64,000 nt of DNA from the IMG/VR virus record IMGVR_UViG_3300036793_000060, positions 1 through 64,000 of that record; one strand, 5' to 3'. How positions within the stretch are numbered: the first letter of the stretch is position 1; every line of letters starts with the position of its first letter. The notes below the pieces were generated by a model. It had not been told where the DNA came from and ran no database searches. It saw nothing but the letters and a program-made list of their open reading frames with translations. Made by a program: the position numbers and the translations under genes. This DNA is from a virus. Taxonomy: Duplodnaviria > Caudoviricetes. Shown in pieces: positions 2,511 through 41,509 of the stretch.

Positions 2511-2746
2511 GGTAACCTACCCGCGCGCTCATCCGGCTCGTACAGCGCCATGTGGCCCTGTGCCCTGCCCAGCCAGTTGATGGCCCGCACCAGGTCGTCG
2601 GCGACCTGCGTTGGCACCTTCCCGCCGCCGTTGCGCAGCCACTCGGACATGCGCCGTACCTCATCCTCAGTCTCGTGCAGCCTGGCCAGGACCATGGCCT
2701 TCTCGCTGCCTGACACCACGAACCGCTGTTCTATCGACCTTGGCAT
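2489..2746 (-). CDS. Hypothetical protein (in-frame TTA at 2513-2515, just before the next start)
   Basis: ATG at 2746, first gene left of the AT-rich intergenic region. Confidence 0.65.
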   Translation of the reverse strand: MPRSIEQRFVVSGSEKAMVLARLHETEDEVRRMSEWLRNGGGKVPTQVADDLVRAINWLGRAQGHMALYEPDERAGRLPWTRQAG

Positions 2747-2799
2747 GGAACGTATCCTACCACAGCTTCCAGCCTACAGTTTTCCAGGCCGCTCAAACC

Positions 2800-3150
2800 C
2801 TCGCTGACCTGCGGAGACTCACAGTTCATACAATTCTACGCTCGATTATAACCTTATACGCCTAAAAGCCTGTATTCTAATTAATCCTTGCCTTTACCTA
2901 CTTTATTCCTTCCTTCTCTCTATTCCTAGAACCGTTAAGGAAAAAGTGTAAAAAGAGTAAAAGGCCAGGTCAGAGTAGGTTTAAGGCCTTACACTTATTT
3001 ACAACTTTGACAGTTCCTGTTTTCGCCCTATCATCTACCTGCCTGTCTTGTCCATCTGCCTGCTCATCTGCCTGCCTGACGTAGGCAAGTTTTCTCGTAC
3101 ATCCGGATGAAGCGTGAAAAGTGCGAGGTTATCCACAGGGTTGTCCACAA
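2800..3150. other. Putative replication origin: AT-rich tract, short repeats, tandem DnaA boxes
   Basis: Most AT-rich non-coding stretch in the window; AAGTGTAA/TTACACTT inverted repeat; CATCTGCCTG repeats; TTATCCACA 3129-3137 and TTGTCCACA 3141-3149. Confidence 0.65.
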
Positions 3151-3221
3151 GCAAGGCGGCCACCGAGCGCTTCTGCCCAGTGACCGCCTGCTATGTAGTG
3201 AATCGCTATACGCTATACGGC

Positions 3222-3425
3222 TCAGTCGCCGCCTATGCCCTCGCTGCGCACTCTCCTCACCTCCTCCAGCACCGCCCCGAACGCAGTGCCCTCAGGGTCG
3301 GCCGCCGTCGCCAGCCAGGCCGCGTGAGCCATCGCCTCGGCAGGCGCCATCGCGCACCTCGGGTTGAGCACCAGCACCCACCCGTCTCCGTCGGTGGCCA
3401 CCCGCTGGCTGTTCGCCGTGCTCAT
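3222..3425 (-). CDS. Hypothetical protein
   Basis: ATGA-coupled start MSTANSQ. Confidence 0.6.
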   Translation of the reverse strand: MSTANSQRVATDGDGWVLVLNPRCAMAPAEAMAHAAWLATAADPEGTAFGAVLEEVRRVRSEGIGGD

Positions 3426-3634
3426 GGTGGCCCCTCCCTCCTGGTGTCCAGCGGCCAGCCGAGTCCCGGCGCGCACCGCCTGTGGTTCCGCACCCACGCC
3501 CCGTACGCCTGGTGGGCCAGGTAGCACGGGTTGCAGGGGACCGACCTGGGGACGGCCTCCAGGTGCATGTTGTAGCCCCGGTTGGTGCCGGTCCTGCCCT
3601 CGCAGGCCAGGGCGGCTGCAGGCTCACCGCGCAT
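3422..3634 (-). CDS. Small putative metal-binding protein
   Basis: GT..GY..H......PC.PC..A motif of a kind common in actinophage small proteins. Confidence 0.55.
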   Translation of the reverse strand: MRGEPAAALACEGRTGTNRGYNMHLEAVPRSVPCNPCYLAHQAYGAWVRNHRRCAPGLGWPLDTRREGPP

Positions 3635-4061
3635 TCGGCAGGTCGTCGTCCCAGCCGTAGTCGAGCAGCCGGGGCAGCAGTGCCATCGTGTACGCCGCGT
3701 ACGACTGGGGGCTGACGTTCCGGTCCTTCAGCGCCTCCTGCAGCACCTTCTGCGTTGCCTTCACCGCCGCCAGGGCGTGGCTCAGCGGGATAGGCTCCAG
3801 GCCCAGCTCCGCCTCCGGGTTCTCCGCAGGCTTGCCCTCGTCCATCTCCTGTCCTTCCTCCCGGCCGTCTTCCACCGACCGGATCATGAGCACGCCGTCC
3901 CCAAGGCTCCGCGTCACCACGATCAGTGCGTGCCGCCTCCCCCAGGCGTAGGCTGCCTCGCGGAACGCCCCGGCTGACTCGATCCCGTGCTCGCCCTCCT
4001 TCACGGCGTGCCACCTCCCGTCGAGCAGGGCCGCCCACGGGTACCTCGGCTCGCTGCTCAC
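3624..4061 (-). CDS. Hypothetical protein
   Basis: GTG start coupled to upstream stop; PWAALLDGRWH...FREAAY. Confidence 0.6.
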   Translation of the reverse strand: MSSEPRYPWAALLDGRWHAVKEGEHGIESAGAFREAAYAWGRRHALIVVTRSLGDGVLMIRSVEDGREEGQEMDEGKPAENPEAELGLEPIPLSHALAAVKATQKVLQEALKDRNVSPQSYAAYTMALLPRLLDYGWDDDLPNAR

Positions 4062-4354
4062 GAGCGGTCCCTCGCCGGCCCGTGCACGTCGTCCCCGTCG
4101 ATGTCCAGCCCGGTCAGGGCGCACAGGTCCCTGGCCAGCTCGACGCTCATCGGCACCTCTCCGCTGAACGTCCGCGACAGGTGCCACCGGGTGACCTTCA
4201 TCGACTCGGCGACGTGCCCGAGCGGGATGTCCCGCATGATGGCCCAGGCCTTCACCCTCTTCCCGAGCCGCATCGCATCCGGTACCTCTAGCATCAGCGT
4301 GCCTCTCGGCCGCCGTGGAACTCCCATTGTCATTGTCAGCTCCTCATGGCCCAC
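4058..4354 (-). CDS. XRE-family helix-turn-helix protein
   Basis: LGHVAESMKVTRWHLSRTFSGE...VELARDLC helix-turn-helix pattern. Confidence 0.65.
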   Translation of the reverse strand: MGHEELTMTMGVPRRPRGTLMLEVPDAMRLGKRVKAWAIMRDIPLGHVAESMKVTRWHLSRTFSGEVPMSVELARDLCALTGLDIDGDDVHGPARDRS

Positions 4355-5880
4355 TCCGCGTTGAGCCTTATTCCGGTGAAACGCCGTCGCCCGGATGAAT
4401 ATGCCACCCCCTCTTTCGCCCCGAGCTTAAGGTAGAACTCATTGCGCCCGAGGTATGCCAGTCCCCTCGCCCATTCCCGGTATGCCATCCACATCGCCGA
4501 GGCCGTGGTCTCCCATACGGCTCCCGGCGCGGCACTGCCATCCGGCTTCTCGCAGCACTCTGCGGTGAACGCGTCCACGGTATCCTGGCTGGCCACGTAC
4601 CTGGCCGTCTCGACTTCCACGCTCAGCGGCTGGGGAAGCCCGTCCCGGTAGTACCGCATGGCGGCCCTCACCAGCAGTGCGAGTATCGCCTCTCCCTCAG
4701 CGGCCAGGACCCTCTCGGCCTTCATCACGTCAATCTCCCAGGGCGCCAGTGACTCCCCTCCTGGAATGACCGCGATACGGCGCCTAAGCCCGCTGTCAAA
4801 GCTCGCGACGCTAGGAAGGTCATTAGTCGCGCCGAATGGAAGCCACGTAACCGGAGTCCGGATCTCCGTTTTTGCGTAGTGCTGATTTACGGTGATCTCT
4901 GGCTCTCCTGTGAGCCTCTTGACTTGTGCCTCGTCAAGCTTGATTCTCGAACTCATCTCCGACATGATTACAAGGCGCTTGCTTCGTATCGAATTCTCAG
5001 TCCTGGCATTCCTGCCATGCGGCACCTGGGCGATCAGCTCTGTCGACGTTGAGTGAGCGAGTCGTCCCAGCACCTGGGAGACAATCCAAAGCACTTTCGA
5101 CTTCCCCGACCCGGCCGGGCCTGCCAGGAACGGGAACAAGTGCTCGGGATTGCGCCCCAGCAGCGAGTACCCGAGCACCCTCAGCAGGTAGTCGGCGCTC
5201 TCCGCGTCCGCGCACGCGCGCACGGCCATGCCCCAGAACCCTGTAGCCTGCGACGCCAGCTCTCCCCTGTAGTCCCACTCCAGGCAGTAGGTGATCATGT
5301 CCGCAGGGTTGTGCGGGCGAAGCTCGCCGGTAAGCAGCGATACGGTCCCGTTCGCGCAGTTCAGGTAGCCCTCGGTGCGCGAGAACTCGAAGTCGGCGAC
5401 GTCGGTGCCGCACACCCCGGCGAGGTACCGCTCAAGCGACCCCATCCCGGCTGACTTCAGCAGCCCGGCGTTGTACCGCCAGGCCGCGTCCCACCCCTCG
5501 GCCTTCCACCTGCGGTCCAGCTCGCCCCTCAGCGCCGCGTCCGGGGGCCGCCGGTCACGCCCGCCCGCCGTCTCCTCGATCTCCAGCGCGATGGCCGTCC
5601 TCGCCGCGCGCAGGGCCTCACGTGACCGCACCGCCCAGTCCCGGCACATCTGGTGGATCCGCATCGACTGGTCCGGCCGGTGGCAGGTCCCGTCCCACAC
5701 GTACCACTGCGCGTCCCCCGGAACGTAGTGCAGCATCCCCTCCCACTCATTGGCGATGCAGACGGCTGCGTCGTTGTCGCTCGCCACCAGCGCCGCCCGC
5801 GTGGCCCCGAGCGACAGCGACCCGTCGTCGTCCCACAGCACGAGGTACTGCCATGACCGGGGTGCCCCCCGCCGCGCCAC
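4336..5880 (-). CDS. P4/D5-family SF3 helicase (D5_N + ATPase)
   Basis: WYVWDG D5_N motif, LNCANGTVSL, Walker A GPAGSGKS, motif B LVIMSE, motif C ATN. Confidence 0.92.
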   Translation of the reverse strand: MARRGAPRSWQYLVLWDDDGSLSLGATRAALVASDNDAAVCIANEWEGMLHYVPGDAQWYVWDGTCHRPDQSMRIHQMCRDWAVRSREALRAARTAIALEIEETAGGRDRRPPDAALRGELDRRWKAEGWDAAWRYNAGLLKSAGMGSLERYLAGVCGTDVADFEFSRTEGYLNCANGTVSLLTGELRPHNPADMITYCLEWDYRGELASQATGFWGMAVRACADAESADYLLRVLGYSLLGRNPEHLFPFLAGPAGSGKSKVLWIVSQVLGRLAHSTSTELIAQVPHGRNARTENSIRSKRLVIMSEMSSRIKLDEAQVKRLTGEPEITVNQHYAKTEIRTPVTWLPFGATNDLPSVASFDSGLRRRIAVIPGGESLAPWEIDVMKAERVLAAEGEAILALLVRAAMRYYRDGLPQPLSVEVETARYVASQDTVDAFTAECCEKPDGSAAPGAVWETTASAMWMAYREWARGLAYLGRNEFYLKLGAKEGVAYSSGRRRFTGIRLNAEWAMRS

Positions 5881-5958
5881 TTACGTGCCCCCGCTGGCTG
5901 ATACATTGCCCATGGTCAGCAATTTCCGCCTTTCCCGGTGCAGGATCGCGGACGGCCG

Positions 5959-5996
5959 GCGGGCGCCAGCGCTTCTCATCCGGCGCTGGCGCCCGC
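5959..5996. other. Perfect 14-bp inverted repeat upstream of the helicase
   Basis: GCGGGCGCCAGCGC-10 nt-GCGCTGGCGCCCGC. Confidence 0.6.
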
Positions 5997-6029
5997 TCCT
6001 CATCCGGTGGTGCCTGCGATCGTACGCCG

Positions 6030-6317
6030 CTATTCCTCCCGGCTACAGCACGCTCCGGTCCATCCGCCCTCGTCGTTGCTGTACCGCATCCGCATCCCCG
6101 GCTCCATGTACTGGCCGCAGCCCTGGCAGAACCCTCCGTGCTCGGCCCGCGTCCAGGGTCCGTACTCGCCGGTAGCCTCCGACGCCAGCTGCGACAGCGC
6201 GTCCCACTCCGCCGGCCCGTACGTGGTGCGCGTCTCTATCCGGATGGATCCCCGGCGAGGCGTGCATATCGCGCACGTCGCCTTGGGCAGCAGGTGGATG
6301 CAGTCATCCGAGGCCAT
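6030..6317 (-). CDS. Hypothetical Cys-rich (Zn-binding) protein
   Basis: CIH.....CAIC and FCQGC motifs. Confidence 0.6.
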   Translation of the reverse strand: MASDDCIHLLPKATCAICTPRRGSIRIETRTTYGPAEWDALSQLASEATGEYGPWTRAEHGGFCQGCGQYMEPGMRMRYSNDEGGWTGACCSREE

Positions 6318-7036: not shown

Positions 7037-7908
7037 TTCTCCTCTTCCCTTTCCCTTTTCACGATGTACGCACGCGCATGGGTAATGATAGTGCGTACTT
7101 CCGACCACGGGAACCCGTGATTGTCCATCTTCTCCCAGGCTTCCCGCAGGGTTGCTGTTACCTGCTCCAGCCCGGCCGTACCGGTACCATACCTCCGGAA
7201 CAGCGATGCGGCGAGCCGCGACAGCTCGTTGTTGCGGTTGCCGGGTACCAGTCCGGCATCATTCCTGAACGGCTCAGGACGATCCTGGACGGAACTGGAC
7301 GCTGGCGCGGTCGCTATCCACTCGCCCAGCCCGTCCGGTATCGCCGGCAGCGTGCAGGGGCAGCCGCCGGCCCACTCATACGGCAGGATCCGGTCTATCG
7401 CCTCCTGGCCGGCCTCAAGCCTCGGCATGACCAGCCCGCTGGGCGGTACCACGACGTACCCGCCGTCGCCCTTCACGTCCACGCCGGGCAGCAGTCCCGT
7501 GCGGTTCGGCACGCCGCCTGCCCACGGCCACCGCATCCACAGGTGCGCCCCGCCCGACGGCGTGCGCGCCCACGGGACGTCCGGCATGGCGATCCCCCGT
7601 GCCTGGCACAGCCCGGCCAGCTCCCGAGGCCCGTCCGCGCCGTTCTTGCGGTCCAGGTCGATGACAACCAGCCCCTGCCCGCACGCTATCCCGATGTTGG
7701 CCGACGGCGCGGAATCCCACCAGCGCCGTATCAGCTGGTAGTCGACGTCACCGTGGTGGACGCCGCCCTCGTAGCCGAGCACTGCGTGCGGCCTCTTGCC
7801 TCCTCGGGCCAGCGGCAGCACCCGGTAGTGCGCTCCCGCGTACCATTCGGCGAACTGCCCCATGCTCGCGCACCCCGCAGCGTGGTCAGCGAACTGGTGG
7901 CTCAGCAC
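6958..7908 (-). CDS. Bifunctional DNA primase/polymerase (Prim-Pol) with PriCT-1-like C-terminus
   Basis: NIGIACG, VIDLDRKNG, RTPSGGAHL, DVKGDGGYVVVPPS; GNRNNELSRLAASL. Confidence 0.92.
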   Translation of the reverse strand: MLSHQFADHAAGCASMGQFAEWYAGAHYRVLPLARGGKRPHAVLGYEGGVHHGDVDYQLIRRWWDSAPSANIGIACGQGLVVIDLDRKNGADGPRELAGLCQARGIAMPDVPWARTPSGGAHLWMRWPWAGGVPNRTGLLPGVDVKGDGGYVVVPPSGLVMPRLEAGQEAIDRILPYEWAGGCPCTLPAIPDGLGEWIATAPASSSVQDRPEPFRNDAGLVPGNRNNELSRLAASLFRRYGTGTAGLEQVTATLREAWEKMDNHGFPWSEVRTIITHARAYIVKREREEEKWATAADAGWLARMRPSGPSRSRERY

Positions 7909-8194
7909 CGGTCAGCCCGTCCCTGCGCAGGTGGTACAGCCCCTGCTCCTCCAGCGACACGCCAGCCCCGCGCAGCTCCATCCCGGTCCAGGCGCAGATC
8001 TCCATCGCAAGCGCGACGGTGGTCACCCGCGTCCCGTTCTCAAGGCGGGACAGCGAGTTGACGTTGATTCCCAGGTCTTTCGCCAGCTCCCAGCAGGCAA
8101 GGTGGTGCAGGGCACGCCAGGCGGCGATCCGGCGGCCGAACCGGATCGCCTCCTCCTGCGACAGGCGCGGCGTGCCATTCGGGTAACTCGGCAT
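7886..8194 (-). CDS. XRE-family HTH protein
   Basis: FGRRIAAWR....LAKDLGINVNSLSRLENG. Confidence 0.85.
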   Translation of the reverse strand: MPSYPNGTPRLSQEEAIRFGRRIAAWRALHHLACWELAKDLGINVNSLSRLENGTRVTTVALAMEICAWTGMELRGAGVSLEEQGLYHLRRDGLTGAEPPVR

Positions 8195-8360
8195 CGAACC
8201 CGCCGCCCCTCACCAGGGTCCACCGGGTCAGGCGGCGCACCATGCGCGGTGACATGTCGAAGTACGTGACCTTCCGCTCGTAGAAGTCGATGATGATCGA
8301 CGGCCCCTGGGGAGATCCCCAGGCGATCATGTTCCCCAGCCTCGCCAGCCTTCTACGCAT
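8184..8360 (-). CDS. Small hypothetical protein; apparent end at TTA 8184-8186 (formal stop at 8040)
   Basis: ATG at 8360 coupled to upstream gene; beyond the TTA the frame is a shadow of the next gene. Confidence 0.5.
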
Positions 8361-10444: not shown

Positions 10445-10676
10445 GGTCCATCACCGCGTCCACGATGTCGCCGGCCTCGATGGGCCGGATGTTAACTGCG
10501 ATGGCGATCCAGCCGTCATCGCCTGCCTCACGGCAAATGTCGCCGATCTGCTGGTCAAGCGTTGCCTGGATAGCGCGCGAGACCTCCTCGATGATGTGCC
10601 CCACAGGGTCACTGCTCGACTTGACTCGCCTCACTGGCAGCAGGTTCGATGCCCTGCGCCTGCCCTTCCCTGGCAT
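10437..10676 (-). CDS. Hypothetical protein
   Basis: Coupled ORF; start may lie further downstream. Confidence 0.5.
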   Translation of the reverse strand: MPGKGRRRASNLLPVRRVKSSSDPVGHIIEEVSRAIQATLDQQIGDICREAGDDGWIAIAVNIRPIEAGDIVDAVMDHE

Positions 10677-10926
10677 CTTCCGTCTCCCTGTTCTTGTTCC
10701 TGGCCGGTGGCACCTCTGCCATCGCCTGCTCGTACCTGACGGAGCGGAGCGTCACGATCACGTCCACGTAGCCGTCGCGCCCTGCCATGCTGATCGCCCC
10801 GTTCAGGCCATCGGCGATGGCGGCGAGGGTGGCCTGGTAGCCGGCCGACGCCATGGCGCCTTCCGGCTTCCTCCTGCCGCGCGTCATCTCGCGCACGGAC
10901 ATGCGCCTGCGCTTGCTGATCTCCAT
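10609..10926 (-). CDS. Hypothetical protein, first gene of the leftward early operon
   Basis: Directly downstream of the GGAAT-N18-GTT promoter. Confidence 0.55.
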   Translation of the reverse strand: MEISKRRRMSVREMTRGRRKPEGAMASAGYQATLAAIADGLNGAISMAGRDGYVDVIVTLRSVRYEQAMAEVPPARNKNRETEDAREGQAQGIEPAASEASQVEQ

Positions 10927-10951
10927 CCGTCTCCCTTGTCCATTGGCTACG

Positions 10952-10977: not shown

Positions 10978-11020
10978 CCGGCGGGTATCCTGGCACGAGG
11001 GAAACAGGGAGAGGGAGAGC

Positions 11021-12464: not shown

Positions 12465-12470
12465 GACGGC

Positions 12471-12647: not shown

Positions 12648-12655
12648 GCCTAGCC

Positions 12656-12814
12656 GTGCAGTGGCAGGCGACCGCCATCCTGCAGAACGGGGCGGTCATG
12701 CTGTTCGGGCTGGCGGCCGAGAACAAGACGATGGCGTCAGCCAAGGCGTGGGGCAGGGTCGCCGCGCTGCTGGTGGCTGACGTCCACGTCGAGGAACTGC
12801 AGGTCATCCGGTTA
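12656..12814 (+). CDS. Small hypothetical protein; apparent end at TTA 12812-12814 overlapping the pol ATG (formal stop at 12940)
   Basis: TTATG overlap mimics TAATG/TGATG coupling. Confidence 0.5.
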
Positions 12815-14574
12815 TGGGTGCCCTGCAGAGCGTCCGGCTTCACCTGGTCGACAATCTGTCCGCGCTCGATGAGTGCCGCAGGTGGGCAGGGAACAGCAGG
12901 CCGTGCCCGCTGTTCTTCGACACCGAGTCCGGCGGGCTGAACCCCTACCGGGACCGGATGCGGCTCCTCCAGCTGGGCGACATGACCGACGGCTGGGCGT
13001 TCCCCGTCCACTGGGCGGGCGCGGCGGCCGAGATCCTGATGGCCTACGAGGGGCCTCTCGGCGCGCACAACCACGGATACGACTGGCGCGTACTGCAGCA
13101 GAACCTGCCAGGCATCCGGCCGCTCTGGCACAAGACCGAGGACTCGCTGACGCTCGGGCACCTGGACGACTCGATGAAGCTGGCTGGCCTGAAGGAGCGG
13201 GCCGAGATAGAGGTCGACCCGACCGCCGCGAGGGGCCAGGCAGACCTCCAGGCGGGCATGAGGGCGAACCGGTGGACGTGGGGCACCGTCCCCGCCACGT
13301 GGGCGCCTTACTGGTGCTACGGCGCGCTCGACCCCGTGCTGGCGGCGCACCTGTGGATGACGCTCGGGCCGCGCGTGCTGCCCAGGTACCGGGAGGCCTA
13401 CGACCTGGAGCGGGCGGTCATCCGGATCTGCGCGGGGATGATGGACCGGGGGATGATGGTCGACCTGCCCTTCATCCGGGAGAAGATCGCCGACATCGAG
13501 CGGTTCACCGCGCAGGCCCTGCCGTGGCTGCGAGAGAACTTCGGCATCGAGACGGTCAACAGCGGGCCGCAGGTGATGCGGGGCCTGAACAGCGCCGGGA
13601 TCCAGACGGTGGTGCTCACCGAGGAGGGCAACCCCTCGATATCCAAGGAGGCGCTTGGCTTCTACGCGGGCGCCTACCCCGAGCACGCGGCGCTGATCAA
13701 CACCATCCGGCTGTGCCGCAAGGCGGGCGACCTGACCGGGAAGTACCTGGGCAAGTTCCTGGCCATGCAAGACGACGGGATCATGCACTACTCGATCTGG
13801 CCATGCCGAGCGCGCACATCGCGGATGAGCGTAACCGACCCGCCGATGCAGACCTACGACCGCGACGAGCCGGTAGTCCGTGGCGCGTACATCCCGAGGC
13901 CCGGCCACGTGCTGGCGCCCATCGACGCCGACCAGTTCGAGATGCGGCTCACCGCGCACTTCAGCGGCGACGCCCAGCTGATCGCTGACTTCCTGGAGGC
14001 CGAGCGGAACGGCCAGTCGTTCTTCGTCCTCGCCAGCGGGAGAATCTACGGGGAGCAGGTCTCCAAGAAGGACCCCCGGTACAACTACACGAAGAACTCC
14101 AGCTACGCGCAGGTGTACGGGGCGTCGCTCCGCAAGGCGGCGGCCACGGCGGGCGTGCCCGAGGCGCAGATGGGCGAGGCCTACTACGGCTTCCAGCGGC
14201 GCTATCCGGGGGTGCCACGGCTCATGCAGCGGCTGATCTACGCCGCGAAGAGGCGGGGAGGCCGGCCATACGCCGACATCATCGACGGGCGGCGGCTCTG
14301 GGTGCCGAGGGGCCACGAGTACGCGATCCTCAACACTGAGGTCCAGGGAGGCCAGGCGGTGCTGATGAAGCGCAAGCTCGTCGAGCTGGACGCGGCCGGG
14401 TTCGGCGAGTTCATGGACCTGACCATTCACGACGAGATCCTCTTCGAGTTCCCCGAGAAGGAGGCGGAGAGAATGCTGGCCCAGGCTACGGAGCTGCTTA
14501 CCGACCGCACGTCGTTGGCAGTTCCCATTACCTGGAGCGGGACAATTCTTAGGGAGAGATGGCGCAAAACATGA
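12814..14574 (+). CDS. polA: Family A DNA polymerase with 3'-5' exonuclease
   Basis: ExoI FFDTES, ExoII HN..YD, ExoIII YGALD; motif A IDADQFEMR, motif B KNSSYAQVYG, motif C IHDEI. Confidence 0.95.
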   Translation: MGALQSVRLHLVDNLSALDECRRWAGNSRPCPLFFDTESGGLNPYRDRMRLLQLGDMTDGWAFPVHWAGAAAEILMAYEGPLGAHNHGYDWRVLQQNLPGIRPLWHKTEDSLTLGHLDDSMKLAGLKERAEIEVDPTAARGQADLQAGMRANRWTWGTVPATWAPYWCYGALDPVLAAHLWMTLGPRVLPRYREAYDLERAVIRICAGMMDRGMMVDLPFIREKIADIERFTAQALPWLRENFGIETVNSGPQVMRGLNSAGIQTVVLTEEGNPSISKEALGFYAGAYPEHAALINTIRLCRKAGDLTGKYLGKFLAMQDDGIMHYSIWPCRARTSRMSVTDPPMQTYDRDEPVVRGAYIPRPGHVLAPIDADQFEMRLTAHFSGDAQLIADFLEAERNGQSFFVLASGRIYGEQVSKKDPRYNYTKNSSYAQVYGASLRKAAATAGVPEAQMGEAYYGFQRRYPGVPRLMQRLIYAAKRRGGRPYADIIDGRRLWVPRGHEYAILNTEVQGGQAVLMKRKLVELDAAGFGEFMDLTIHDEILFEFPEKEAERMLAQATELLTDRTSLAVPITWSGTILRERWRKT

Positions 14575-19399: not shown

Positions 19400-19515
19400 G
19401 GGATTACTGGGGCTGGCTACGCGAGAATCCTTATCATATGACCTCATTCATCATCAACGTCGCCGGGCTGTGCTGCGCTGTATCTGCTATCTGCCTGCTG
19501 ATCGCCGGAGGCTGA
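19396..19515 (+). CDS. Small membrane protein (39 aa)
   Basis: GTGA-coupled; hydrophobic FIINVAGLCCAVSAICLLIAGG. Confidence 0.45.
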   Translation: MRDYWGWLRENPYHMTSFIINVAGLCCAVSAICLLIAGG

Positions 19516-19517: not shown

Positions 19518-19817
19518 GTGAAGGCAAGAGGATGGGCTATCCAGTACAAGTTCCCGCTCCCTTATGACATCATCGTGACGAACGACGTCGGCGAGCACGT
19601 GATCGTGAATGTCCAGTCAATCGAGGTGCCTTTCGATACCGAGGCGTCGGCACTGGGCGCAGCCGACGACGGACTTCCGAGGGTTATCGCCAAGAACCAG
19701 GTCGTGGAGGGGGAGGTAATCACCGATGATAGCGATCAGCAATTCAGAGATCGCGCTGTGGAAGCGGTGCCGCCGTCAGTGGTACCTAAGGTATTACCTT
19801 GGCATGCGGCTGGCTGA
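19518..19817 (+). CDS. Hypothetical protein overlapping the nuclease gene; in-frame TTA at 19794
   Basis: GTG start 2 nt after the upstream stop. Confidence 0.5.
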   Translation: MKARGWAIQYKFPLPYDIIVTNDVGEHVIVNVQSIEVPFDTEASALGAADDGLPRVIAKNQVVEGEVITDDSDQQFRDRAVEAVPPSVVPKVLPWHAAG

Positions 19818-20730
19818 CGAGAACGCCACCGGCCCGATGCAGCAGGGCACGCGCATCCACACTGCCCTGGAGGCCCAGTACGGGTACGGCGTCCCGGCCC
19901 ACAAGGCGCTGGCCACGATCTACGACCACGCCGAGGCCCGGTGGCCCGAGCCGGCCGACGTCGCCGCGCTGCGGGCCGAGCGCGAGACGTCGCTGATCAT
20001 GGTCAGCGGCTACCTGGAGTGGGTAGACGAGACCGGCGCCGACGCGAATCTCCGGGTGGTGGCGACCGAGCGTGACATCAGGGTGCCGATGCCAGGCATG
20101 CCGGAGGTGCTGCTGCGGGCCAAGCTGGACCAGGTGGTGCTGGACGAGCAGTCAGGAATGCTGTCGTTCCTTGACCACAAGACGTCGGCCAGCTTCGAGA
20201 AGCACGAGCACCTGGTGCTCGACCCGCAGTTCCGCCACTACGCGCTCATCCAGCGGCTGGCGCGGCCAGCCGGCGCTCCGCAGGTCTACGGCGGGATCAT
20301 GAACACGCTGCGCCGGGTCAAGCGCAGCTCGGCCAGCAAGCCGCCCTACTACCAGCGGGATGCCGTCCGGTTCAACGACGAGGCGATCGAGGCCACGCTG
20401 ATGTCCGTGCGCGGCGCGGTCATGGAGATCGTCATGGCGCGCAGCGGGTTCGACGAGATCCGCGAGGCCGGCAACGTGCTGGAGTCCGTGAACGCGGCAC
20501 AGCGGCTGATCACCTACCCCAACCCGCGAGTTCGCGACTGCAGCTGGGACTGCCCGTTCACGTCGCTGTGCCCGATGATGGACGACGGCAGCGACTGGGT
20601 GGGCGCCCTGATCGCCAGCGGCCGGTACGCCCAGGGCGACCCGTACGGGTACTACGGGGACTCACTGCTCCCGCTGGTCCTGGCGGCGGGTAAGGTGGGC
20701 GGCACGGAACAGGGAGAGGGCAACGGATGA
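19726..20730 (+). CDS. PD-(D/E)XK (RecB/Cas4-like) exonuclease
   Basis: SNSEI..WKRC.R.W, GTRIH, ATE, KLDQ, LDHKT, QF.HY, CSWDCPF...C. Confidence 0.88.
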   Translation: MIAISNSEIALWKRCRRQWYLRYYLGMRLADENATGPMQQGTRIHTALEAQYGYGVPAHKALATIYDHAEARWPEPADVAALRAERETSLIMVSGYLEWVDETGADANLRVVATERDIRVPMPGMPEVLLRAKLDQVVLDEQSGMLSFLDHKTSASFEKHEHLVLDPQFRHYALIQRLARPAGAPQVYGGIMNTLRRVKRSSASKPPYYQRDAVRFNDEAIEATLMSVRGAVMEIVMARSGFDEIREAGNVLESVNAAQRLITYPNPRVRDCSWDCPFTSLCPMMDDGSDWVGALIASGRYAQGDPYGYYGDSLLPLVLAAGKVGGTEQGEGNG

Positions 20731-26485: not shown

Positions 26486-26594
26486 GGGCGTGCAACTGCG
26501 CCGCTGACGTGCTGTAGACCCCAGTACGTTGGCGGCCAGGGACAGGAACCCGCGTGGTCAGCGGGGGCTGGTTCAATTCCAGCCGCGCCCACCA
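26486..26594 (+). ncRNA. tRNA-like RNA (acceptor stem, T arm, encoded CCA; no canonical D or anticodon arm)
   Basis: GGGCGTG/CGCGCCC 7-bp stem, A73 + CCA, GCTGG-TTCAATT-CCAGC; intergenic. Confidence 0.65.
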
Positions 26595-26633: not shown

Positions 26634-27095
26634 ATGGCGGTTGACAAGAGGGACATCGAGCACAGGCTCACGCAGCAGGTGCACGCCAGGAACATCAGGG
26701 CGTGGCGCCGGGCGCTGTGGGCCAGCTGGATGGGCGACGGGTACGAGGTCACCCCGTTCGGCGGCGAGTCCCTGGTCCTGAAGCCAGCGGAGGCCTACGC
26801 GCTCCTGGCAGGCATCGAGAGCGCGGTCGCGGCCGAGAAGTCGCGGCAGGATGCCGAGGCCAGGGCCAGGGCCGAGCTTGACGCCGAGCAGGCGGGCAAG
26901 CGCGCGGCCGAGGCCGACGCTGAGAACCTTGCCGTCGAGACGACAGGGTGCCCTACCTGCAAGGCCGAGCCTGGCCAGCGGTGCACCCGCGAGCAGGCCG
27001 ACCCGACCCCGTACGCGGCTCACCCGCACGCTCCCCGGCTGGCAGAGGCCGGGGTCAGGGTCAGGCAGGCCAGGGAGGAAGTGTTCGGACGATGA
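26634..27095 (+). CDS. Hypothetical protein with C-terminal Zn finger
   Basis: CPTCKAEPGQRC...HPHAPRL. Confidence 0.7.
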   Translation: MAVDKRDIEHRLTQQVHARNIRAWRRALWASWMGDGYEVTPFGGESLVLKPAEAYALLAGIESAVAAEKSRQDAEARARAELDAEQAGKRAAEADAENLAVETTGCPTCKAEPGQRCTREQADPTPYAAHPHAPRLAEAGVRVRQAREEVFGR

Positions 27096-27331
27096 TCACC
27101 AGGAGCGAGGCCAGGGCGGACGCGCTGAAGCTGGAGTGCCCGTTCTGCCAGGCGAAGCCCGGCAGCAGGTGCCGCCAGCTCACGTCGCACCTGGCCGGGC
27201 AGATGTGGTCGGACAAGCCGGCCCGCGACGCGCACGTGCAGCGAATGATGCTCGTGCCCGAGTGGGCGGCCCGAGAGAACGAGAGGAAGCACGCTGATGT
27301 GGCACCAGTGGGATCTTCGGCTAGCAGGTTA
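27092..27331 (+). CDS. Zn-finger protein; apparent end at TTA 27329-27331 (formal stop at 27493)
   Basis: CPFCQAKPGSRC...AHVQR; the frame after the junction is a shadow of the next gene. Confidence 0.6.
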
Positions 27332-27482
27332 CGCAGCGCTGGCGATGGTGGTCCTGTGGGGCATCGCGTTCGGCGTGCTGTACGCAGTCGATGCGGCGGC
27401 AACGGTGTCCGTCTGGCCGGTTTTCCCGGCAGGCTGGCTCGTGACGTCCGTGGCATCCTATGTTCGCCTGAGGTGGCGATGA
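27297..27482 (+). CDS. Small membrane protein (2 TM)
   Basis: Two hydrophobic segments. Confidence 0.6.
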   Translation: MWHQWDLRLAGYAALAMVVLWGIAFGVLYAVDAAATVSVWPVFPAGWLVTSVASYVRLRWR

Positions 27483-28074: not shown

Positions 28075-28668
28075 CTACCCGCGCTCCTTGACGTACGTCC
28101 CCAGGGTCGCCAGCGCCGCGTCCGCCGCCGCCGCCGTGACGGCCGGCGGCTTGACGATCGCCGGGGCCTGGGGCAGCCAGATGTTCGGGTTGTAGATCAG
28201 CGACTCGTCCCAGTTGCCGCCGGTCTGCTTGGCGCCCTTCCACTGGCAGGCCACGATGCCGTCCCCGCCCTGGTGGGGGTACTCCTTGCCGCTGAGCGTG
28301 GCGATCCAGAGGCCGTAGTGCTTGCCCCTCACCAGGCCTCGCGCGCTGCACGCGGTGACCACGGCGTCTAGCGTCGACCCGTTGCAGTAGATGACGGGCA
28401 GGCCCGTGTGCAGGACATGCCAGCTCTCCACCCACAGGGCCGCCTTGGCGGGCGTGGCGTCGCCTGTCTCGACGTCGATGATCCCCGCGATGTTGGCGTT
28501 GTCCCCCGTGACGTCGATGCGCCCCAGCCCGTACCTGGTCGGCGAGAACCTCGCGTGCACCGCGTCCAGCGACACCGCGTACAGCCCGTTGCAGTAAGTG
28601 AACGCGACCTGCACCGACGTCGGTATGTCGGCCAGGGTGATGCTGTCTCCGCCGGTCCTGACTGCCAT
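28075..28668 (-). CDS. Endolysin candidate, GH25-like muramidase
   Basis: IIDVETGD, PVIYCN.ST, LWIA, ACQW, WDES resemble the GH25 barrel; located at the end of the tail operon. Confidence 0.65.
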   Translation of the reverse strand: MAVRTGGDSITLADIPTSVQVAFTYCNGLYAVSLDAVHARFSPTRYGLGRIDVTGDNANIAGIIDVETGDATPAKAALWVESWHVLHTGLPVIYCNGSTLDAVVTACSARGLVRGKHYGLWIATLSGKEYPHQGGDGIVACQWKGAKQTGGNWDESLIYNPNIWLPQAPAIVKPPAVTAAAADAALATLGTYVKERG

Positions 28669-34585: not shown

Positions 34586-34602
34586 CAGTCACGCTCCCGG
34601 CG

Positions 34603-35184: not shown

Positions 35185-35185
35185 G

Positions 35186-35827: not shown

Positions 35828-35841
35828 TTGTTTTCGCCCTC

Positions 35842-36816: not shown

Positions 36817-36818
36817 GG

Positions 36819-37733: not shown

Positions 37734-40700
37734 TGGCCAGGTACCCGCTCATCTTCGCCGCGTGCAGCCGGTACTCCAGCTCGTTGAGCGCCTTGTTCAG
37801 GCTCATGTTGTCCGGCTGCATGATGTTGATCGTGTCAGCGATCTTGCTGCTCCCCCAGCCGGGCTGCGAGGGCGCGGTGCCGCCCATCGGGGACACCCAC
37901 TCCGGCCCGCGCTCGCCGAACATGTACCGATCGCCCGACTTCAGGCCGGTGCCGAGCACAGGCTCGTAGATCGGGCCGCCGTCCCCGTACCAGTGCATCG
38001 ACTGCTCATGTGCCCAGGCGGCACCAGGGTTGCCATAGCGACTTCTGATGTAGTTGAGCATGGCAATGATCTGGCCGGGGATGGTGGTCGGGTTGCCGCC
38101 CCACGTGTAGTACTCGCTAGGCCCGAGGATGAACTGCGCCAGCCCGTAGGCGCCCGAGCCGGGGTTCTGCGCGGTCGGGTTGAAGCCTGCCTCGGCCATC
38201 TCGACGTCGTAGAGGGCATTCCACTGGCCGCCCGTCCACCCGTAGCCTGCGGCCATCGTCCGCATGATGCCCTCGATGACGGCCTGGCTGGCGCTCAGGC
38301 CGCCCGCAGGGGGTCCTGGGAGGCCGATGGCGGACTTGGCGGCGGCGGCCACGCTGGCGGCTGCCTTGGCGGCTACGTGCTTGGCCTGTGTCATGCCGAT
38401 GCCGATGCCGTTCATGATGTGCATGCCGGCGTCGATGGCCCACTGGGGCGGGGAGTGGATCCCCAGCGCGTGCAGGATGGCCGTGGGCAGCCCCTTGAAG
38501 AAGTTGTATACGTCGGTCCATATCCCCTTGATGCCGTTGTACAGGCCTATGAGGATATTCCGGCCGCCCTGTGTCAGCCAGTTAGCGGACCCGGTGAACG
38601 TGCGGACGATGGACCCGTATATCCCGTGGAAGAAGTTGAATATCGTCGTCCACGTGGCCTTGGTGTCGTTATAGACGGTCCCCCAGATCTGGTGCCAGTG
38701 CTGGTACAGCTCAATGGCTCCGAGGGCGATCAGTCCAGCCGGTCCCAGCAATGGCAGCAGGAACTTCCCGAACCCGTGCCATATGAAGTTCCAGGCGTCC
38801 GAGGCCGCCCCCTTGATGAATCCCCATATCTGCTTCCAGTGCTGCCAGACCTCAATGACGCCAAGGGCGATCCAGCCCACCGGCCCGAGCAGCGGCAGCA
38901 GGTACTTGCCGAACCCGTCCCAGATGAAGTGCCAGGCGTCCTCGGCGATCCGCTTGATGAACGCCCAGATAGTGCTCCAGTGCTTGTACACCTCGAATAC
39001 GGCTACCCCGAGGGCGACAAGGGCAAGGATAATGACACCGATCGGGTTGGCGTCCAGGGCGATGTTGAGGATTGCCTGCGCTATCGCCCACAGCTTCACC
39101 GCCGCGACGATTGCGAGGATGGCGCCGACTATTCCTGTCAGTACATTCGGGGGAATGGCGTTAATGATGGCCGACAGCGCGTCTGCGACCCCGGTTATCG
39201 CCCCGACCAGCGCAATGGTGAACAGCTTCGCGAACGTGAGCAGCAGCGGGAGCACCACGGGCAGGATCTGCGCGATTGACTTCAGCACCTCCGTGGCCAG
39301 CTGGGTCAGCGGGGGAAGCAGCACCTCGATCGCCGACACCAGCCCGCCGATGAGGATCCCCGACAGCTGGGAGATGAACTGGATGACCGGCGGCAGGATG
39401 GGAGTCAGCCCCTTGACCAGCGCGTCGATCAGCTTGGCCAGGGGCTTGACCAGCCCCTCGATCGCGTCGCCGAGGATGGCGAACGTGCCTGTGTTCTCCA
39501 GCACGGTGAACACGCCGGAGATCGCCTTGGCGAACACTGTCAGCGACGGGGCGATAGCCTCCAGGAGCTGTGCCAGCGCCCCGAACGCGGCGACCAGGTC
39601 ACCGAGGATGGCTCCCGCGAGCGACGCCAGCACCCTGCCGATGAGCGTCAGGAACGGCAGGAGGGACTTGATGACCGCCGCGAGCTGGACGAACACGGGA
39701 GCCAGGGCAGCGGCGAAGATGGCGGCCAGCTTGCCGATGATGGGCAGCAGCGCGCCGACCACGTCGAACAGCGCCTTGAAGATGGTGCTGCTCGCCTTGA
39801 TGACCGGCACGAACGCGGAGAACAGCCCGCTCAGGTCATGCCCTAGCGTGCCCAGCACCTGCGCAAGCACGGTGATCGCCGGGTTGGCGACCTTCAGCAG
39901 GGCGATGATCCCTGGCAGCGCCTGCTTGACGAACTGGCCGAGTCCGTCCAGGAGGATCTTCAGCAGGGGGGCGACGGTGGAGAATCCGGACCCGAGCGCA
40001 GGGAGGACGTCCTTGACGATGTCGCCCAGCCCGGCGATCAGCGGACCCGCCAGCACCAGCGCGCTCTTGAAGAACGTGTTCACCGTCGGCGTCAGCCCGT
40101 TGAGGAGGCTGGCCACCTGCTGGAGCACCTTCGCCATCGGCGCGGTCATCCCGGCGGTCATGTTCTGCCAGGCGTTCTGGATGCTGGTGATTGAGTGCAG
40201 GATGGCCTGCTGAGGGCCTGTGAGCGCCGCGATCTGCTGGTTGACCCCCTGCATCTGCTGGAGGGCTGCTGTCCGCGCAGCGGGCGTTGTGGCCGACTGC
40301 AGGGCCGTCTTCGCTGCAGACTGCGCCTGGAGGATCGGGCTTATGGGCTTGATCGCGCTCATCCCGCCGAGCGCCAGCGCGCCGATGCCGGCCCCGCCCA
40401 CGCCGAGCACCCCGAGGCCTGCCAGCAGCGGGCCTAGCCCACCGAGCACCGACCCGCCGAGTCCGACGATGCCTGATGTCTTCAGGCCCATGCCGAGGAT
40501 GCCCGGCCCGATCCCGCCGAGCAGGTTGCTGAAGAAGCCCCCGCCGCTGCTCCCCGGCTTCCCGCCGCTGCTCCCGCCTCCGCCGCTGCTCCCGCCGCCC
40601 ATCCCCAGCAGGCCGCGCATCGAGGTCGCGCGCTTCCCGCCGATGCCGAACAGGCCGCTCAGCCAGCCCCCGCCCTGGCGGTTGACCTCGTTGGTGGCTG

Positions 40701-41175
40701 CCGTGTTGGCGCTGTCGGCTGCCTCCTTGCCCGCTGCCCTGGCCTTGGCCTTGATGTCCGCGTCGTCGAACCCGAGCACGTCGTCGACTACGGTCTTCTG
40801 GGCGGGCGGCTTGACTCCGCCAGCCCCTCCTGGGGCGCTGACCAGCTTGCCCAGCGCGCCCTGCGAGCCGGACTGCAGGGCCGTGGGCGCCCCGGTGACC
40901 GGGTGCGGGGAGAACAGCGAGTTGAGCGTGCCCAGGACGCTGCCCTGCGGGGAGGACCGCAGCCGCATGGCCGCCTCGCGCGAGAGCTGGTTGTCCAGCT
41001 GGGCGAACATCCTGCTGGCACGGCCGAACGCGGCGTGGTCGAACGCGGCGGTGATCTTGACCTCGTGCCGGGCGCCAGTGAACCGCCGGACGCGGGCCTC
41101 GGCCTTGTCCATGTCCCTGTCGAACTGGTCCAGCCGGACGGTGAGCCGTGCCTCGATCGCACCCGCGTCGTACAC
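37726..41175 (-). CDS. Tape measure protein with C-terminal transglycosylase-like domain
   Basis: 1149 aa, Ala/Gly/Leu-rich repeats; EAGFNPTAQNPGSGAYGLAQF...YIRSRYG. Confidence 0.93.
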   Translation of the reverse strand: MYDAGAIEARLTVRLDQFDRDMDKAEARVRRFTGARHEVKITAAFDHAAFGRASRMFAQLDNQLSREAAMRLRSSPQGSVLGTLNSLFSPHPVTGAPTALQSGSQGALGKLVSAPGGAGGVKPPAQKTVVDDVLGFDDADIKAKARAAGKEAADSANTAATNEVNRQGGGWLSGLFGIGGKRATSMRGLLGMGGGSSGGGGSSGGKPGSSGGGFFSNLLGGIGPGILGMGLKTSGIVGLGGSVLGGLGPLLAGLGVLGVGGAGIGALALGGMSAIKPISPILQAQSAAKTALQSATTPAARTAALQQMQGVNQQIAALTGPQQAILHSITSIQNAWQNMTAGMTAPMAKVLQQVASLLNGLTPTVNTFFKSALVLAGPLIAGLGDIVKDVLPALGSGFSTVAPLLKILLDGLGQFVKQALPGIIALLKVANPAITVLAQVLGTLGHDLSGLFSAFVPVIKASSTIFKALFDVVGALLPIIGKLAAIFAAALAPVFVQLAAVIKSLLPFLTLIGRVLASLAGAILGDLVAAFGALAQLLEAIAPSLTVFAKAISGVFTVLENTGTFAILGDAIEGLVKPLAKLIDALVKGLTPILPPVIQFISQLSGILIGGLVSAIEVLLPPLTQLATEVLKSIAQILPVVLPLLLTFAKLFTIALVGAITGVADALSAIINAIPPNVLTGIVGAILAIVAAVKLWAIAQAILNIALDANPIGVIILALVALGVAVFEVYKHWSTIWAFIKRIAEDAWHFIWDGFGKYLLPLLGPVGWIALGVIEVWQHWKQIWGFIKGAASDAWNFIWHGFGKFLLPLLGPAGLIALGAIELYQHWHQIWGTVYNDTKATWTTIFNFFHGIYGSIVRTFTGSANWLTQGGRNILIGLYNGIKGIWTDVYNFFKGLPTAILHALGIHSPPQWAIDAGMHIMNGIGIGMTQAKHVAAKAAASVAAAAKSAIGLPGPPAGGLSASQAVIEGIMRTMAAGYGWTGGQWNALYDVEMAEAGFNPTAQNPGSGAYGLAQFILGPSEYYTWGGNPTTIPGQIIAMLNYIRSRYGNPGAAWAHEQSMHWYGDGGPIYEPVLGTGLKSGDRYMFGERGPEWVSPMGGTAPSQPGWGSSKIADTINIMQPDNMSLNKALNELEYRLHAAKMSGYLANA

Positions 41176-41188
41176 GGCTCACCTCCTC

Positions 41189-41509
41189 TAACGCTGCTGC
41201 GGCTGGCTTGCGCCCCGTCGCCCTGTCCAGGTCTTCCTTCATCTTCGCAAGGTCGATGACGTCCACGCCAGCGTCCACGTTGCTGCGGATCGTCGGTCCC
41301 TGCGGGGCCTTCTCCTCCTGGAGGGTGAACGGCACGTCCTCATCGGCCACCATCCCCTCGATGTACGTCTTCTGGATATCCCAGCTGAGGGTGTCCCACT
41401 CTGAGGCACTGATCTGCAGGTACTTGCGGACGACATACAGGATTACCCGACGGCTCAGCGCTTCCGGCTGCTCGCTGGCTGCGCTCCACCGCCGGTCGCG
41501 GCTTCCGGG
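41189..41509 (-). CDS. Tail assembly chaperone frameshift extension (T); apparent end at TTA 41189-41191
   Basis: -1 frame relative to G from candidate slip site CCCGGAA (41503-41509); no real stop until 39836. Confidence 0.55.

What the first reader, a model, noticed from the sequence alone, without database searches (positions are those of the whole stretch)
2513..41191. TTA appears to act as a fourth termination signal at six gene junctions
Seen in sequence (manual scan of TTA trinucleotides in called genes): no called gene has an internal in-frame TTA, apart from the portal hops. In-frame TTA does occur where a stop is expected: 2513-15 (2 nt before the next GTG), 8184-86 (3 codons into the next gene), 12812-14 (TTATG overlap with the pol start, like TAATG), 19794-96, 27329-31 and 41189-91 (followed directly by the TMP RBS GAGGAGG). 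Past the TTA these ORFs run 7 to ~450 codons in shadow frames of the next gene. A few other overlaps (10609, 6958, 57739) have no TTA. Inference: UUA is effectively unassigned or hungry in the host during infection, so ribosomes terminate, drop off or shift there. Alternatively these are conditional read-through switches, or hops into the next gene's frame.
Basis: partly seen in the sequence, partly recalled or inferred. Interest (0 to 1): 0.85.

Follow-up and report, generated by a model that had tools for sequence, protein, structure and literature searches.

The report
Rare leucine codon TTA replaces stop codons
In this uncultured 77-kb high-GC phage the very rare leucine codon TTA is never used inside genes. 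It sits where four to six genes should end, and relatives have a normal stop codon at the one site they could be compared at, so ribosomes probably stop or stall there instead of reading it, which has not been described for phages.

Summary
All six TTAs are at the stated coordinates: three on the + strand and three on the - strand.

- **TTA usage:** none occurs in 23,097 coding codons. Only five ORFs run 30 or more codons past their coding end into the next gene, and all five carry an in-frame TTA 0-23 codons after that end. Ordinary genes do so in 2 of 104 cases (P about 2e-7).
- **Site 41189 (tail-chaperone T frame):** five related phages have TAG or TGA exactly where this genome has TTA.
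- **Site 27329:** homologues end 11-21 residues after a shared motif, TTA lies 19 after it, and none aligns past it.
- **A second lineage:** a relative found in four metagenomes has TTA where orthologous terminases have TGA or TAG.
- **Portal gene:** it is split by two TTA-headed inserts of 8 and 7 nt that are absent from the 23 relatives inspected.
- **Weaker sites:** 2513 and 19794 have real stops 7 and 6 codons later.

Most likely UUA is unreadable or stop-like during infection. The release mechanism and the host are unknown.

The closest published case is UUA-triggered bypassing in Streptomyces phage phiHau3. The scan's earlier notes report TTA-ended genes in other large high-GC phages; I did not test those.

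The parts
2513..2515 (-). Site 1: in-frame TTA near the end of a 76-aa ORF (2489-2719). It lies 2 nt upstream of the GTG start of the next gene (1353-2510), and a canonical TGA follows 7 codons later.
   Evidence: This is a weak case, because a real stop is close by.
8184..8186 (-). Site 2: TTA directly after the coding end of a 48-codon gene (8187-8330, ATG at 8330). It lies 8 nt inside the next gene, an HTH protein (7886-8194). The ORF then runs 47 more codons to 8040.
   Evidence: The TTA is made by the rare codon pair AGT-TAC of the HTH gene.
12812..12814 (+). Site 3: TTA one codon after the coding end of a 52-codon gene (12656-12811). It overlaps the DNA polymerase I start as TTATG. The ORF then runs 41 more codons to 12940.
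   Evidence: No SD lies in front of the polymerase ATG (read from the sequence; hairpin).
19794..19796 (+). Site 4: TTA in the 3' tail of a 99-aa ORF (GTG 19518 to TGA 19817). It lies 68 nt inside the PD-(D/E)XK nuclease gene (19726-20730), and a canonical stop follows 6 codons later.
   Evidence: This is a weak case: the coding signal ends 23 codons earlier, and relative L091 has the same TAT-TAC pair.
27329..27331 (+). Site 5: TTA at codon 80 of a zinc-finger gene (ATG 27092, Pfam PF24623). It lies 32 nt inside the next small membrane-protein ORF (27297-27482). The ORF then runs 53 more codons to 27493.
   Evidence: Homologues of 67-106 aa end 11-21 residues after the VPEWAA motif, the TTA is 19 residues after it, and none aligns beyond it.
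41189..41191 (-). Site 6: TTA at the end of the T frame of the tail assembly chaperone (T coding 41192-41443; ORF from 41602; G gene 41455-41874). The SD GAGGAGG and the GTG start (41175) of the tape measure gene follow directly. The ORF then runs 450 more codons to 39836.
   Evidence: All five relatives end the homologous ORF with TAG or TGA at this position.
41132..41186 (-). A strong hairpin begins a few nt after the site-6 TTA and buries the tape-measure SD and start codon.
   Evidence: free energy -40.7 kcal/mol, z-score -3.8, and none of 200 shuffles folds as well.
63566..63576 (-). Portal insert 1: take-off codon CAA (63574-76), then the 8-nt insert TTACCCAA, which ends in a second CAA.
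   Evidence: The 23 relatives inspected read ...EIGTQFDWGQ... without a break.
63499..63508 (-). Portal insert 2: take-off codon GGT (63506-08), then the 7-nt insert TTAAGGC, which ends in GGC.
   Evidence: Relatives read ...DVFDYGEWGARD... without a break.

Best explanation
In this phage UUA is not an ordinary leucine codon. During infection the host supplies little or no functional UUA-reading tRNA, or otherwise treats UUA as stop-like, so a ribosome that meets UUA halts with an empty A site.

The phage appears to use that halt in two ways.

1. **As a stop substitute.** At the 3' ends of four to six genes UUA has taken the place of the stop codon: the tail-chaperone T frame, a zinc-finger protein, two or more small orphan genes, and possibly two others. 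Translation of the protein ends there in practice, instead of running 41-450 codons into the shadow frame of the next gene.
2. **As a bypass trigger.** In the portal gene, UUA heads two short inserts that the halted ribosome bypasses from CAA to CAA and from GGU to GGC.

The simplest origin is a single G-to-T or A-to-T change of TGA or TAA, tolerated or selected only because UUA is not read.

**Shown:** the position of the TTAs, their absence inside genes, stops at the same position in relatives, and the portal inserts.

**Inferred:** that ribosomes halt, that the peptide is released, and how. Candidate release routes are peptidyl-tRNA drop-off with hydrolysis, a rescue factor, or reading of the overlapping U-UAG at site 6 and at the relative's terminase. 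Also inferred: because sites 1, 2, 3 and 6 lie within a ribosome footprint of the next start codon, the halt may tie expression of the next gene to the UUA-decoding state of the host.
For: - **No internal TTA:** none in 23,097 coding codons, and none with coding on both sides.
- **Run-on ORFs:** all five ORFs that run into the next gene carry an in-frame TTA within 0-23 codons of their coding end, against 2 of 104 controls (P = 1.8e-7). TTA is the only rare codon shared by all five tails.
- **Site 6:** five of five relatives have TAG or TGA at the TTA position.
- **Site 5:** homologues end where the TTA lies, and none aligns past it.
- **Independent lineage:** in G005 (locus L042) and in L041, L043 and L044, from four metagenomes and 97.7-99.99% identical, the terminase ends ...DWR-TTA-G-ATG(portal). 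Orthologues have ...W(R/K)-TGA or TAG.
- **Portal:** it is split by TTA-headed 8- and 7-nt inserts with matching take-off and landing codons. The 23 relatives inspected are continuous.
- **Codon choice:** rare T-ending codons of the downstream genes create three of the TTAs.
- **Published precedent:** UUA is limiting in vegetative Streptomyces and triggers bypass of 10-nt inserts in the phiHau3 terminase. A UUA lies 5-6 nt before the adpA start. The same paper discusses drop-off and a +1 stop at UUA-G/A (PMC10732093).
- **Host hint:** the nearest cultured portal relatives are Streptomyces phages.
Against:
- The host is unknown. Its tRNA-Leu(UAA) status could not be established: the one public MAG that holds a relative is incomplete.
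- A ribosome stalled on intact mRNA is normally rescued by tmRNA, which tags the protein for degradation. That would be harmful for the chaperone or, in the relative, for the terminase. No phage-encoded RF-1, Pth or SmpB domain was found.
- Only about 4-5% of genes are affected.
- Sites 1 and 4 have normal stops 7 and 6 codons later.
- Sites 2 and 3 have no homologues to compare.
- Relatives contain run-on ORFs without TTA. Two relatives each have one apparently ordinary internal TTA, so UUA is readable in at least some related systems.
Confidence: 0.6

Rival explanations
1. Conditional switch (a refinement of the best explanation). UUA is read or not read according to the host's developmental state, through a bldA-type tRNA.

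When the tRNA is scarce, proteins end at UUA and the portal is made by bypass, so virions form. When it is abundant, read-through truncates the portal, extends the chaperone and changes initiation of the polymerase, HTH, tape-measure and other genes, so particle production shuts down.
For: - This is the published model for the phiHau3 terminase and the adpA upstream ORF (PMC10732093).
- Four TTAs lie within a ribosome footprint of the next start codon.
- A hairpin buries the tape-measure start right after the TTA.
- The polymerase has no SD of its own (sequence).
- The nearest cultured portal relatives are Streptomyces phages.
Against: - The host is unknown.
- No integrase or lysogeny module was examined.
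- No consistent RNA structure or sequence context is shared by the six sites.
- Nothing measured here shows that both outcomes occur.
Confidence: 0.3
2. Ordinary decoding. TTA is read as leucine, the ORFs really extend and overlap the next gene, and the TTAs are there by chance or because gene starts are AT-richer.
For: - Sites 1 and 4 end at normal stops 7 and 6 codons later.
- Relative L091 has the same TAT-TAC pair as site 4.
- Relatives show about 19 run-on ORFs, mostly without TTA, so run-on is not rare in such GC-rich genomes.
- Two relatives each have one apparently ordinary internal TTA.
Against: - Five of five run-on ORFs have TTA against 2 of 104 junction-matched controls, and against 2 of 19 run-on ORFs in relatives (P = 1.8e-7 and 5e-4).
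- The tails lose all coding signal.
- Homologues stop at the TTA position at sites 5 and 6.
- A 450-residue junk extension on the tail chaperone is implausible.
- The portal cannot be made at all by ordinary decoding.
Confidence: 0.1
3. Recoding into the next gene. At the hungry UUA the ribosome shifts frame or hops to a matching codon and continues in the downstream gene, producing fusion proteins.
For: - At sites 2, 4 and 5 the +1 frame (UAC, Tyr) is the next gene's frame.
- At sites 1, 2, 3 and 6 a codon identical to the take-off codon lies among the first 4-15 codons of the next gene (read from the sequences).
- The portal shows that this phage does use hops.
Against: - The matching codons are common ones (AGG, GAG, CGG, GCG), so these matches are expected by chance.
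- Relatives keep the T gene and the tape-measure gene separate, with a stop between them.
- The polymerase, nuclease and HTH genes are complete from their own starts.
- A fusion at site 4 would delete the conserved nuclease N-terminus.
Confidence: 0.07
4. Artefact. The TTAs and the portal inserts are assembly or sequencing errors in a metagenome-derived contig.
For: - G000 is an uncultured IMG/VR contig.
- No near-identical strain could be found to confirm the bases.
- Reads could not be inspected.
Against: - Eight anomalies all involve the same triplet.
- The portal inserts are 7 and 8 nt long, each with a duplicated flanking codon.
- The same kind of stop-to-TTA change occurs in a relative recovered from four different metagenomes.
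- Removing one T does not restore a stop at sites 1-3 (sequence).
Confidence: 0.03

Closest known systems
UUA-mediated translational bypassing in the large terminase of Streptomyces phage phiHau3 and two prophages (proposed by Smith et al. 2013; tested by Antonov et al. 2023, PMC10732093)
   Same: - A high-GC actinophage that otherwise avoids TTA.
- TTA follows a take-off codon and heads a short frame-breaking insert that homologues lack. The two portal inserts here are of exactly this design.
   Different: - Here the gene is the portal and the inserts are 8 and 7 nt rather than 10.
- The six junction TTAs are not inserts inside a conserved protein. They sit at the end of the protein, where relatives have a stop. 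That paper does not describe this use.
The adpA upstream ORF of Streptomyces, with a UUA 5-6 nt before the main start codon (PMC10732093)
   Same: - A UUA near the 3' end of a short upstream ORF, within a ribosome footprint of the next start codon and next to an SD-like run.
- A G after the UUA gives an overlapping U-UAG, as at site 6 and in the relative's terminase.
   Different: - In adpA a canonical stop follows two codons later. At sites 2, 3, 5 and 6 there is none for 41-450 codons.
- The upstream ORFs here are real protein genes, not leader peptides.
Sense-to-stop genetic codes of organelles (NCBI table 23, Thraustochytrium mitochondria, TTA = stop; from my own knowledge and the translate tool's table list)
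   Same: TTA is absent inside genes and present where proteins end.
   Different: - Those are whole-genome reassignments.
- Here only about 5% of genes end in TTA, the system is a phage of a bacterium, and nothing is known about a release factor that reads UUA.
Unassigned codons in high-GC Micrococcus luteus (UUA, AUA, AGA; Kano, Ohama, Osawa and colleagues, early 1990s; recalled from memory, not read here) and unassigned codons in recoded E. coli (cited as ref. 51 in PMC10732093)
   Same: A codon with no reader halts the ribosome. The halt is resolved by rescue, frameshifting or bypass.
   Different: Those are properties of hosts, or of engineered strains. A phage using such a codon in place of stops has not been described there.

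Membership tests
phiHau3-type UUA coding gap (translational bypass) | A short frame-breaking insert, absent from homologues, inside an otherwise continuous conserved protein | tested here: not met
   This is met for the two portal inserts. It is not met for the six junction TTAs, where the protein ends and no conserved sequence continues in any frame that would need joining.
phiHau3-type UUA coding gap (translational bypass) | UUA directly follows the take-off codon, and a matching landing codon ends the gap | tested here: inconclusive
   The portal has CAA..CAA and GGT..GGC. At the junction sites, matching codons exist at four of six, but they are common codons and such matches are expected by chance (sequences).
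Sense-to-stop code with TTA = stop (table 23 type) | TTA is absent from conserved internal positions of genes | tested here: met
   None occurs in 23,097 coding codons, and none has coding on both sides.
Sense-to-stop code with TTA = stop (table 23 type) | TTA aligns with canonical stops of homologues | tested here: met
   - Site 6: five of five relatives have a stop there.
- Site 5: consistent by homologue length.
- The relative's terminase: TTA against TGA or TAG in orthologues.
- Sites 1-4: not testable, because the genes have no homologues.
Sense-to-stop code with TTA = stop (table 23 type) | Loss of the UUA-reading tRNA and a factor that releases the peptide at UUA | not testable with these tools
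   - The host is unknown.
- The phage has no tRNA and no RF-1, Pth or SmpB domain.
- The MAG that holds a relative is too incomplete to judge.
bldA/UUA-dependent translational control (adpA upstream-ORF type) | A UUA at the 3' end of an upstream ORF, close to the next start codon | tested here: met
   The first base of the TTA lies at -5, +8, -2 and -14 nt from the first base of the next start codon at sites 1, 2, 3 and 6. At sites 5 and 4 it lies at +32 and +68.
bldA/UUA-dependent translational control (adpA upstream-ORF type) | A host in which the UUA-reading tRNA is developmentally limited (Streptomyces and close kin) | not testable with these tools
   There are only hints. The nearest cultured portal relatives are Streptomyces phages at 38% identity. 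Two relatives are binned in Streptosporangiaceae MAGs.

The most novel reading that the evidence does not exclude
UUA is a true fourth stop signal in this phage-host system. The nascent protein is actively and efficiently released at UUA, either by a release or rescue factor or by reading the overlapping stop. Phages of high-GC actinobacteria would then have begun to swap canonical stops for UUA. That would be a sense-to-stop change of the genetic code outside organelles, seen here at an early stage (about 5% of genes) alongside UUA-triggered ribosome hops.
Probability: 0.2. Interest if true: 0.92.

Novelty: new variant of a known kind. Interest (0 to 1): 0.72.

Why it matters
Sense-to-stop changes of the genetic code are known only from a few organelles. 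In bacteria and phages only stop-to-sense changes and a few sense-to-sense changes are established.

Here a sense codon stands where relatives have stop codons, in the same genome in which that codon triggers ribosome hops in an essential gene. If ribosomes really end translation at UUA, three things follow.

- **Annotation:** gene callers mis-annotate such phages, producing long false C-terminal extensions or missed small genes.
- **Biology:** the rare-codon biology of Streptomyces and its relatives (bldA) would gain a new output, termination, besides delay and bypass.
- **Testability:** the open question of what happens to a ribosome at an unreadable codon becomes testable with short natural cassettes.

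It would also give phages a simple way to couple expression of replication and tail genes to the physiological state of the host.

Tried and rejected
- **Close relatives of the window.** Megablast against cultured phages found nothing. Exact-pattern scans for near-identical strains in viral and metagenome contigs found nothing.
- **Relatives via the polymerase or the G chaperone.** None was found in viral or metagenome contigs.
- **Homologues of the small genes at sites 1-4.** None appeared in five whole related genomes, in any fetched locus, in PHROGs or Pfam, or in the word-indexed protein search. The word search also failed for site 5, but the full HMMER search succeeded.
- **Host tRNA check.** In the public Streptosporangiaceae MAG G006, only the Leu tRNAs CAA, GAG and CAG were found among 41 tRNAs. 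UAG is missing too, so the MAG is incomplete and nothing can be concluded. G007 is an unpublished genome. Nothing rests on it except its record title, which is one of the two host hints.
- **Phage-encoded release or rescue functions.** No RF-1, Pth or SmpB domain, no tRNA or tmRNA, and no Rfam family at gathering score.
- **A shared TTACC motif.** It occurs at 4 of 8 sites against an 18% background, which is only marginal. I rejected it as a signal.
- **A shared downstream RNA structure.** Strong only at site 6 and moderate at site 3. There is no common fold.
- **A single extra T as a homopolymer error.** Removing one T would give a stop only at site 6 (sequence).
- **'U-only' TTAs flagged in relatives.** Apart from the G005 terminase, they were antisense shadows, TTAs lying after a stop, or ordinary in-frame TTA codons.
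Full report
**What the DNA is.** The window is the first 64 kb of a 77,089-bp single-contig virus record. IMG/VR classes it as having direct terminal repeats and as 100% complete. It is 68% G+C and has no tRNA or tmRNA gene. It carries a DNA polymerase I, a helicase, a PD-(D/E)XK nuclease, tail chaperones, a tape measure protein, a portal and a terminase. No cultured phage is close at the DNA level. The nearest cultured portal relatives are Streptomyces phages at 38% identity. Sixty-three uncultured relatives share the portal at 54-81% identity. Two relatives sit in Streptosporangiaceae metagenome bins; one of these, G007, is unpublished and is used only for that hint.

**Check of the observation.** Three are on the + strand. 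Three read TAA on the + strand, which is TTA on the coding - strand. I trained a codon log-likelihood model on nine long genes and extracted maximal coding segments in all six frames. This gave 116 non-overlapping segments with 23,097 codons and no TTA in them. No TTA in the genome has coding sequence on both sides in its own frame. Each of the six upstream ORFs has the genomic coding signature in the TTA frame only, and loses it in the tail past the coding end.

**Is it more than chance?** Coding ends were scored without looking at TTA. Exactly five ORFs run 30 or more codons into the next same-strand gene: 8187-8348 (-), 12653-12808 (+), 19539-19724 (+), 27089-27292 (+) and 41207-41443 (-).
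- All five have an in-frame TTA 0, 1, 23, 12 and 5 codons after the coding end, and none in the other two frames.
- In the same 25-codon window after the coding end of 104 ordinary genes, an in-frame TTA occurs twice. One of those two is site 2513. Fisher P = 1.8e-7.
- Among rare codons, only TTA is present in all five tails.
- At sites 8184, 19794 and 27329 the TTA is built from a T-ending codon of the downstream gene followed by TAC. The codons used, AGT, TAT and GGT, make up 2%, 4.6% and 2.9% of their families. Only 12 such pairs exist in 22,981 codon pairs.
- The same pipeline run on relatives finds about 19 run-on ORFs, of which two have a nearby TTA (P = 5e-4 against G000). Run-on alone is therefore not special. 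The link with TTA is.

**Homologues.**
- *Site 41189.* This is the end of the -1 frame (T) of the tail-chaperone pair, just upstream of the tape measure gene. All five related genomes that I fetched whole have a homologous ORF at 44-63% identity. It ends with TAG or TGA directly in front of the tape-measure ribosome-binding site and start codon. That is where G000 has TTA followed by GAGGAGG and GTG.
- *Site 27329.* The gene (ATG 27092) is a Pfam PF24623 zinc-finger protein. A full HMMER search of 1.8 billion proteins, using the ORF read through the TTA, found five homologues of 67-106 aa whose alignments end at query residues 65-69 (a sixth, 113-aa hit is a tandem duplication of the domain). 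One further hit past the TTA was a low-complexity match. In the alignment the homologues end 11-21 residues after the VPEWAA motif, and the TTA lies 19 residues after it.
- *Sites 2513, 8184, 12812 and 19794.* The genes have no detectable homologues.

**An independent second case.** In relative G005 the terminase ORF reads ...RRDWR-TTA-G-ATG, where the ATG is the portal start. It then runs on about 30 codons (36 past the scored coding end). Orthologues read ...REWK-TAG or ...W-R-TGA at the same codon. The TTA is present in four contigs from four metagenomes that differ by 0.01-2.3%, so it is not a sequencing error.

**The portal.** Earlier notes of this scan flagged two 'hops'. I confirmed them. 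In the 23 relatives I inspected, the portal N-terminus is one ORF reading ...EIGTQFDWGQRLFAYYGEGDVFDYGEWGARDMK.... In G000 the same peptide is spread over three frames by an 8-nt insert TTACCCAA after CAA and a 7-nt insert TTAAGGC after GGT. Each insert starts with TTA and ends with a copy of the preceding codon, or of its synonym read by the same tRNA. Ordinary decoding meets a stop soon after. This is the design proposed, and partly tested, for the terminase of Streptomyces phage phiHau3 (PMC10732093). It shows independently that this phage depends on UUA not being read.

**Mechanism.** The best-supported reading is that UUA halts ribosomes in the infected cell and that the phage has replaced some stop codons by it. 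The likely path is a single base change from TGA or TAA. What releases the protein is not known.
- The literature offers three routes for UUA: peptidyl-tRNA drop-off followed by hydrolysis, frameshifting to a nearby stop, and a one-base push onto an overlapping stop when G or A follows UUA (PMC10732093).
- Both homologue-verified cases here are TTA-G. However, a G after the stop is also common in relatives because an SD follows, so this may be incidental.
- The other four sites are TTA-C or TTA-T.
- Standard tmRNA rescue would tag the products for degradation, which argues against simple stalling. The phage encodes no RF-1, Pth or SmpB domain.
- Four TTAs lie within a ribosome footprint of the next start codon. 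The polymerase start (TTATG) has no SD of its own. The tape-measure SD and start are buried in a strong hairpin that begins just after the TTA. Coupling of downstream initiation to events at UUA is therefore plausible, but it is not shown.

**Rivals.**
- Ordinary decoding with real overlaps fits sites 2513 and 19794, which have stops 7 and 6 codons later and, at 19794, the same codon pair in one relative. It does not fit the statistics, the homologues, a 450-codon tail or the portal.
- Fusion to the next gene by a shift or a hop is contradicted at 41189 and is unnecessary elsewhere.
- Sequencing error is unlikely given eight anomalies at one triplet and the replicated case in G005.

**Comparison and novelty.** UUA-dependent delay (bldA) and UUA-triggered bypass (phiHau3) are published. 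A UUA near the end of the adpA upstream ORF is also published, but there a normal stop follows two codons later. I found no paper describing UUA in place of stop codons in phage genes. Sense-to-stop codes with TTA = stop are known from organelles (NCBI table 23). Notes of this scan report TTA-ended genes in several other large high-GC phages. They agree with this report, but I did not test them and do not count them as evidence.

I class the finding as a new variant of a known kind. It would be categorically new if active release at UUA were shown.

Noticed in passing
window 63499-63576 (-): The portal gene is split over three frames by two TTA-headed inserts of 8 and 7 nt with matching take-off and landing codons. 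The 23 relatives inspected have one continuous ORF.
   Followed up: yes
G005 (locus L042) terminase/portal junction, G005:C1 about 28085-28100 (-); also L041, L043 and L044: The terminase stop codon is replaced by TTA (…DWR-TTA-G-ATG) in a related phage lineage recovered from four metagenomes. Orthologues have TGA or TAG there.
   Followed up: yes
window 26486-26590 (+): A tRNA-like RNA with an acceptor stem, T arm, CCA end and a long central helix capped by UAGACCC. Its fold z-score is -3.9. The only Rfam hit is a weak tRNA-Sec match (E = 0.1). ARAGORN does not call it, and no copy was found in relatives. It cannot read UUA. A role in ribosome rescue is pure speculation.
   Followed up: partly
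window 41132-41186 (-): A very stable hairpin (-40.7 kcal/mol, z-score -3.8) sequesters the tape-measure SD and GTG start immediately after the site-6 TTA.
   Followed up: partly
window 12797-12830 (+): The DNA polymerase ATG has no SD at normal spacing. Together with the TTA it lies in the loop of a hairpin (z-score -2.25), which suggests that its translation depends on the upstream 52-codon ORF.
   Followed up: partly
window 19438-19515 (+): A 25-codon hydrophobic mini-ORF (MTSFIINVAGLCCAVSAICLLIAGG) lies between the helicase and the site-4 gene. It ends in a TGA that lies within the SD region just before the next GTG.
   Followed up: no
window 41440-41540 (-): The tail-chaperone G and T frames overlap without a classical XXXYYYZ slippery heptamer, so the frameshift site is unclear.
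   Followed up: no
window 10609-10926 (-): This is the only other long overlap with a downstream gene (about 71 nt). It ends at a canonical stop and has no TTA.
   Followed up: partly
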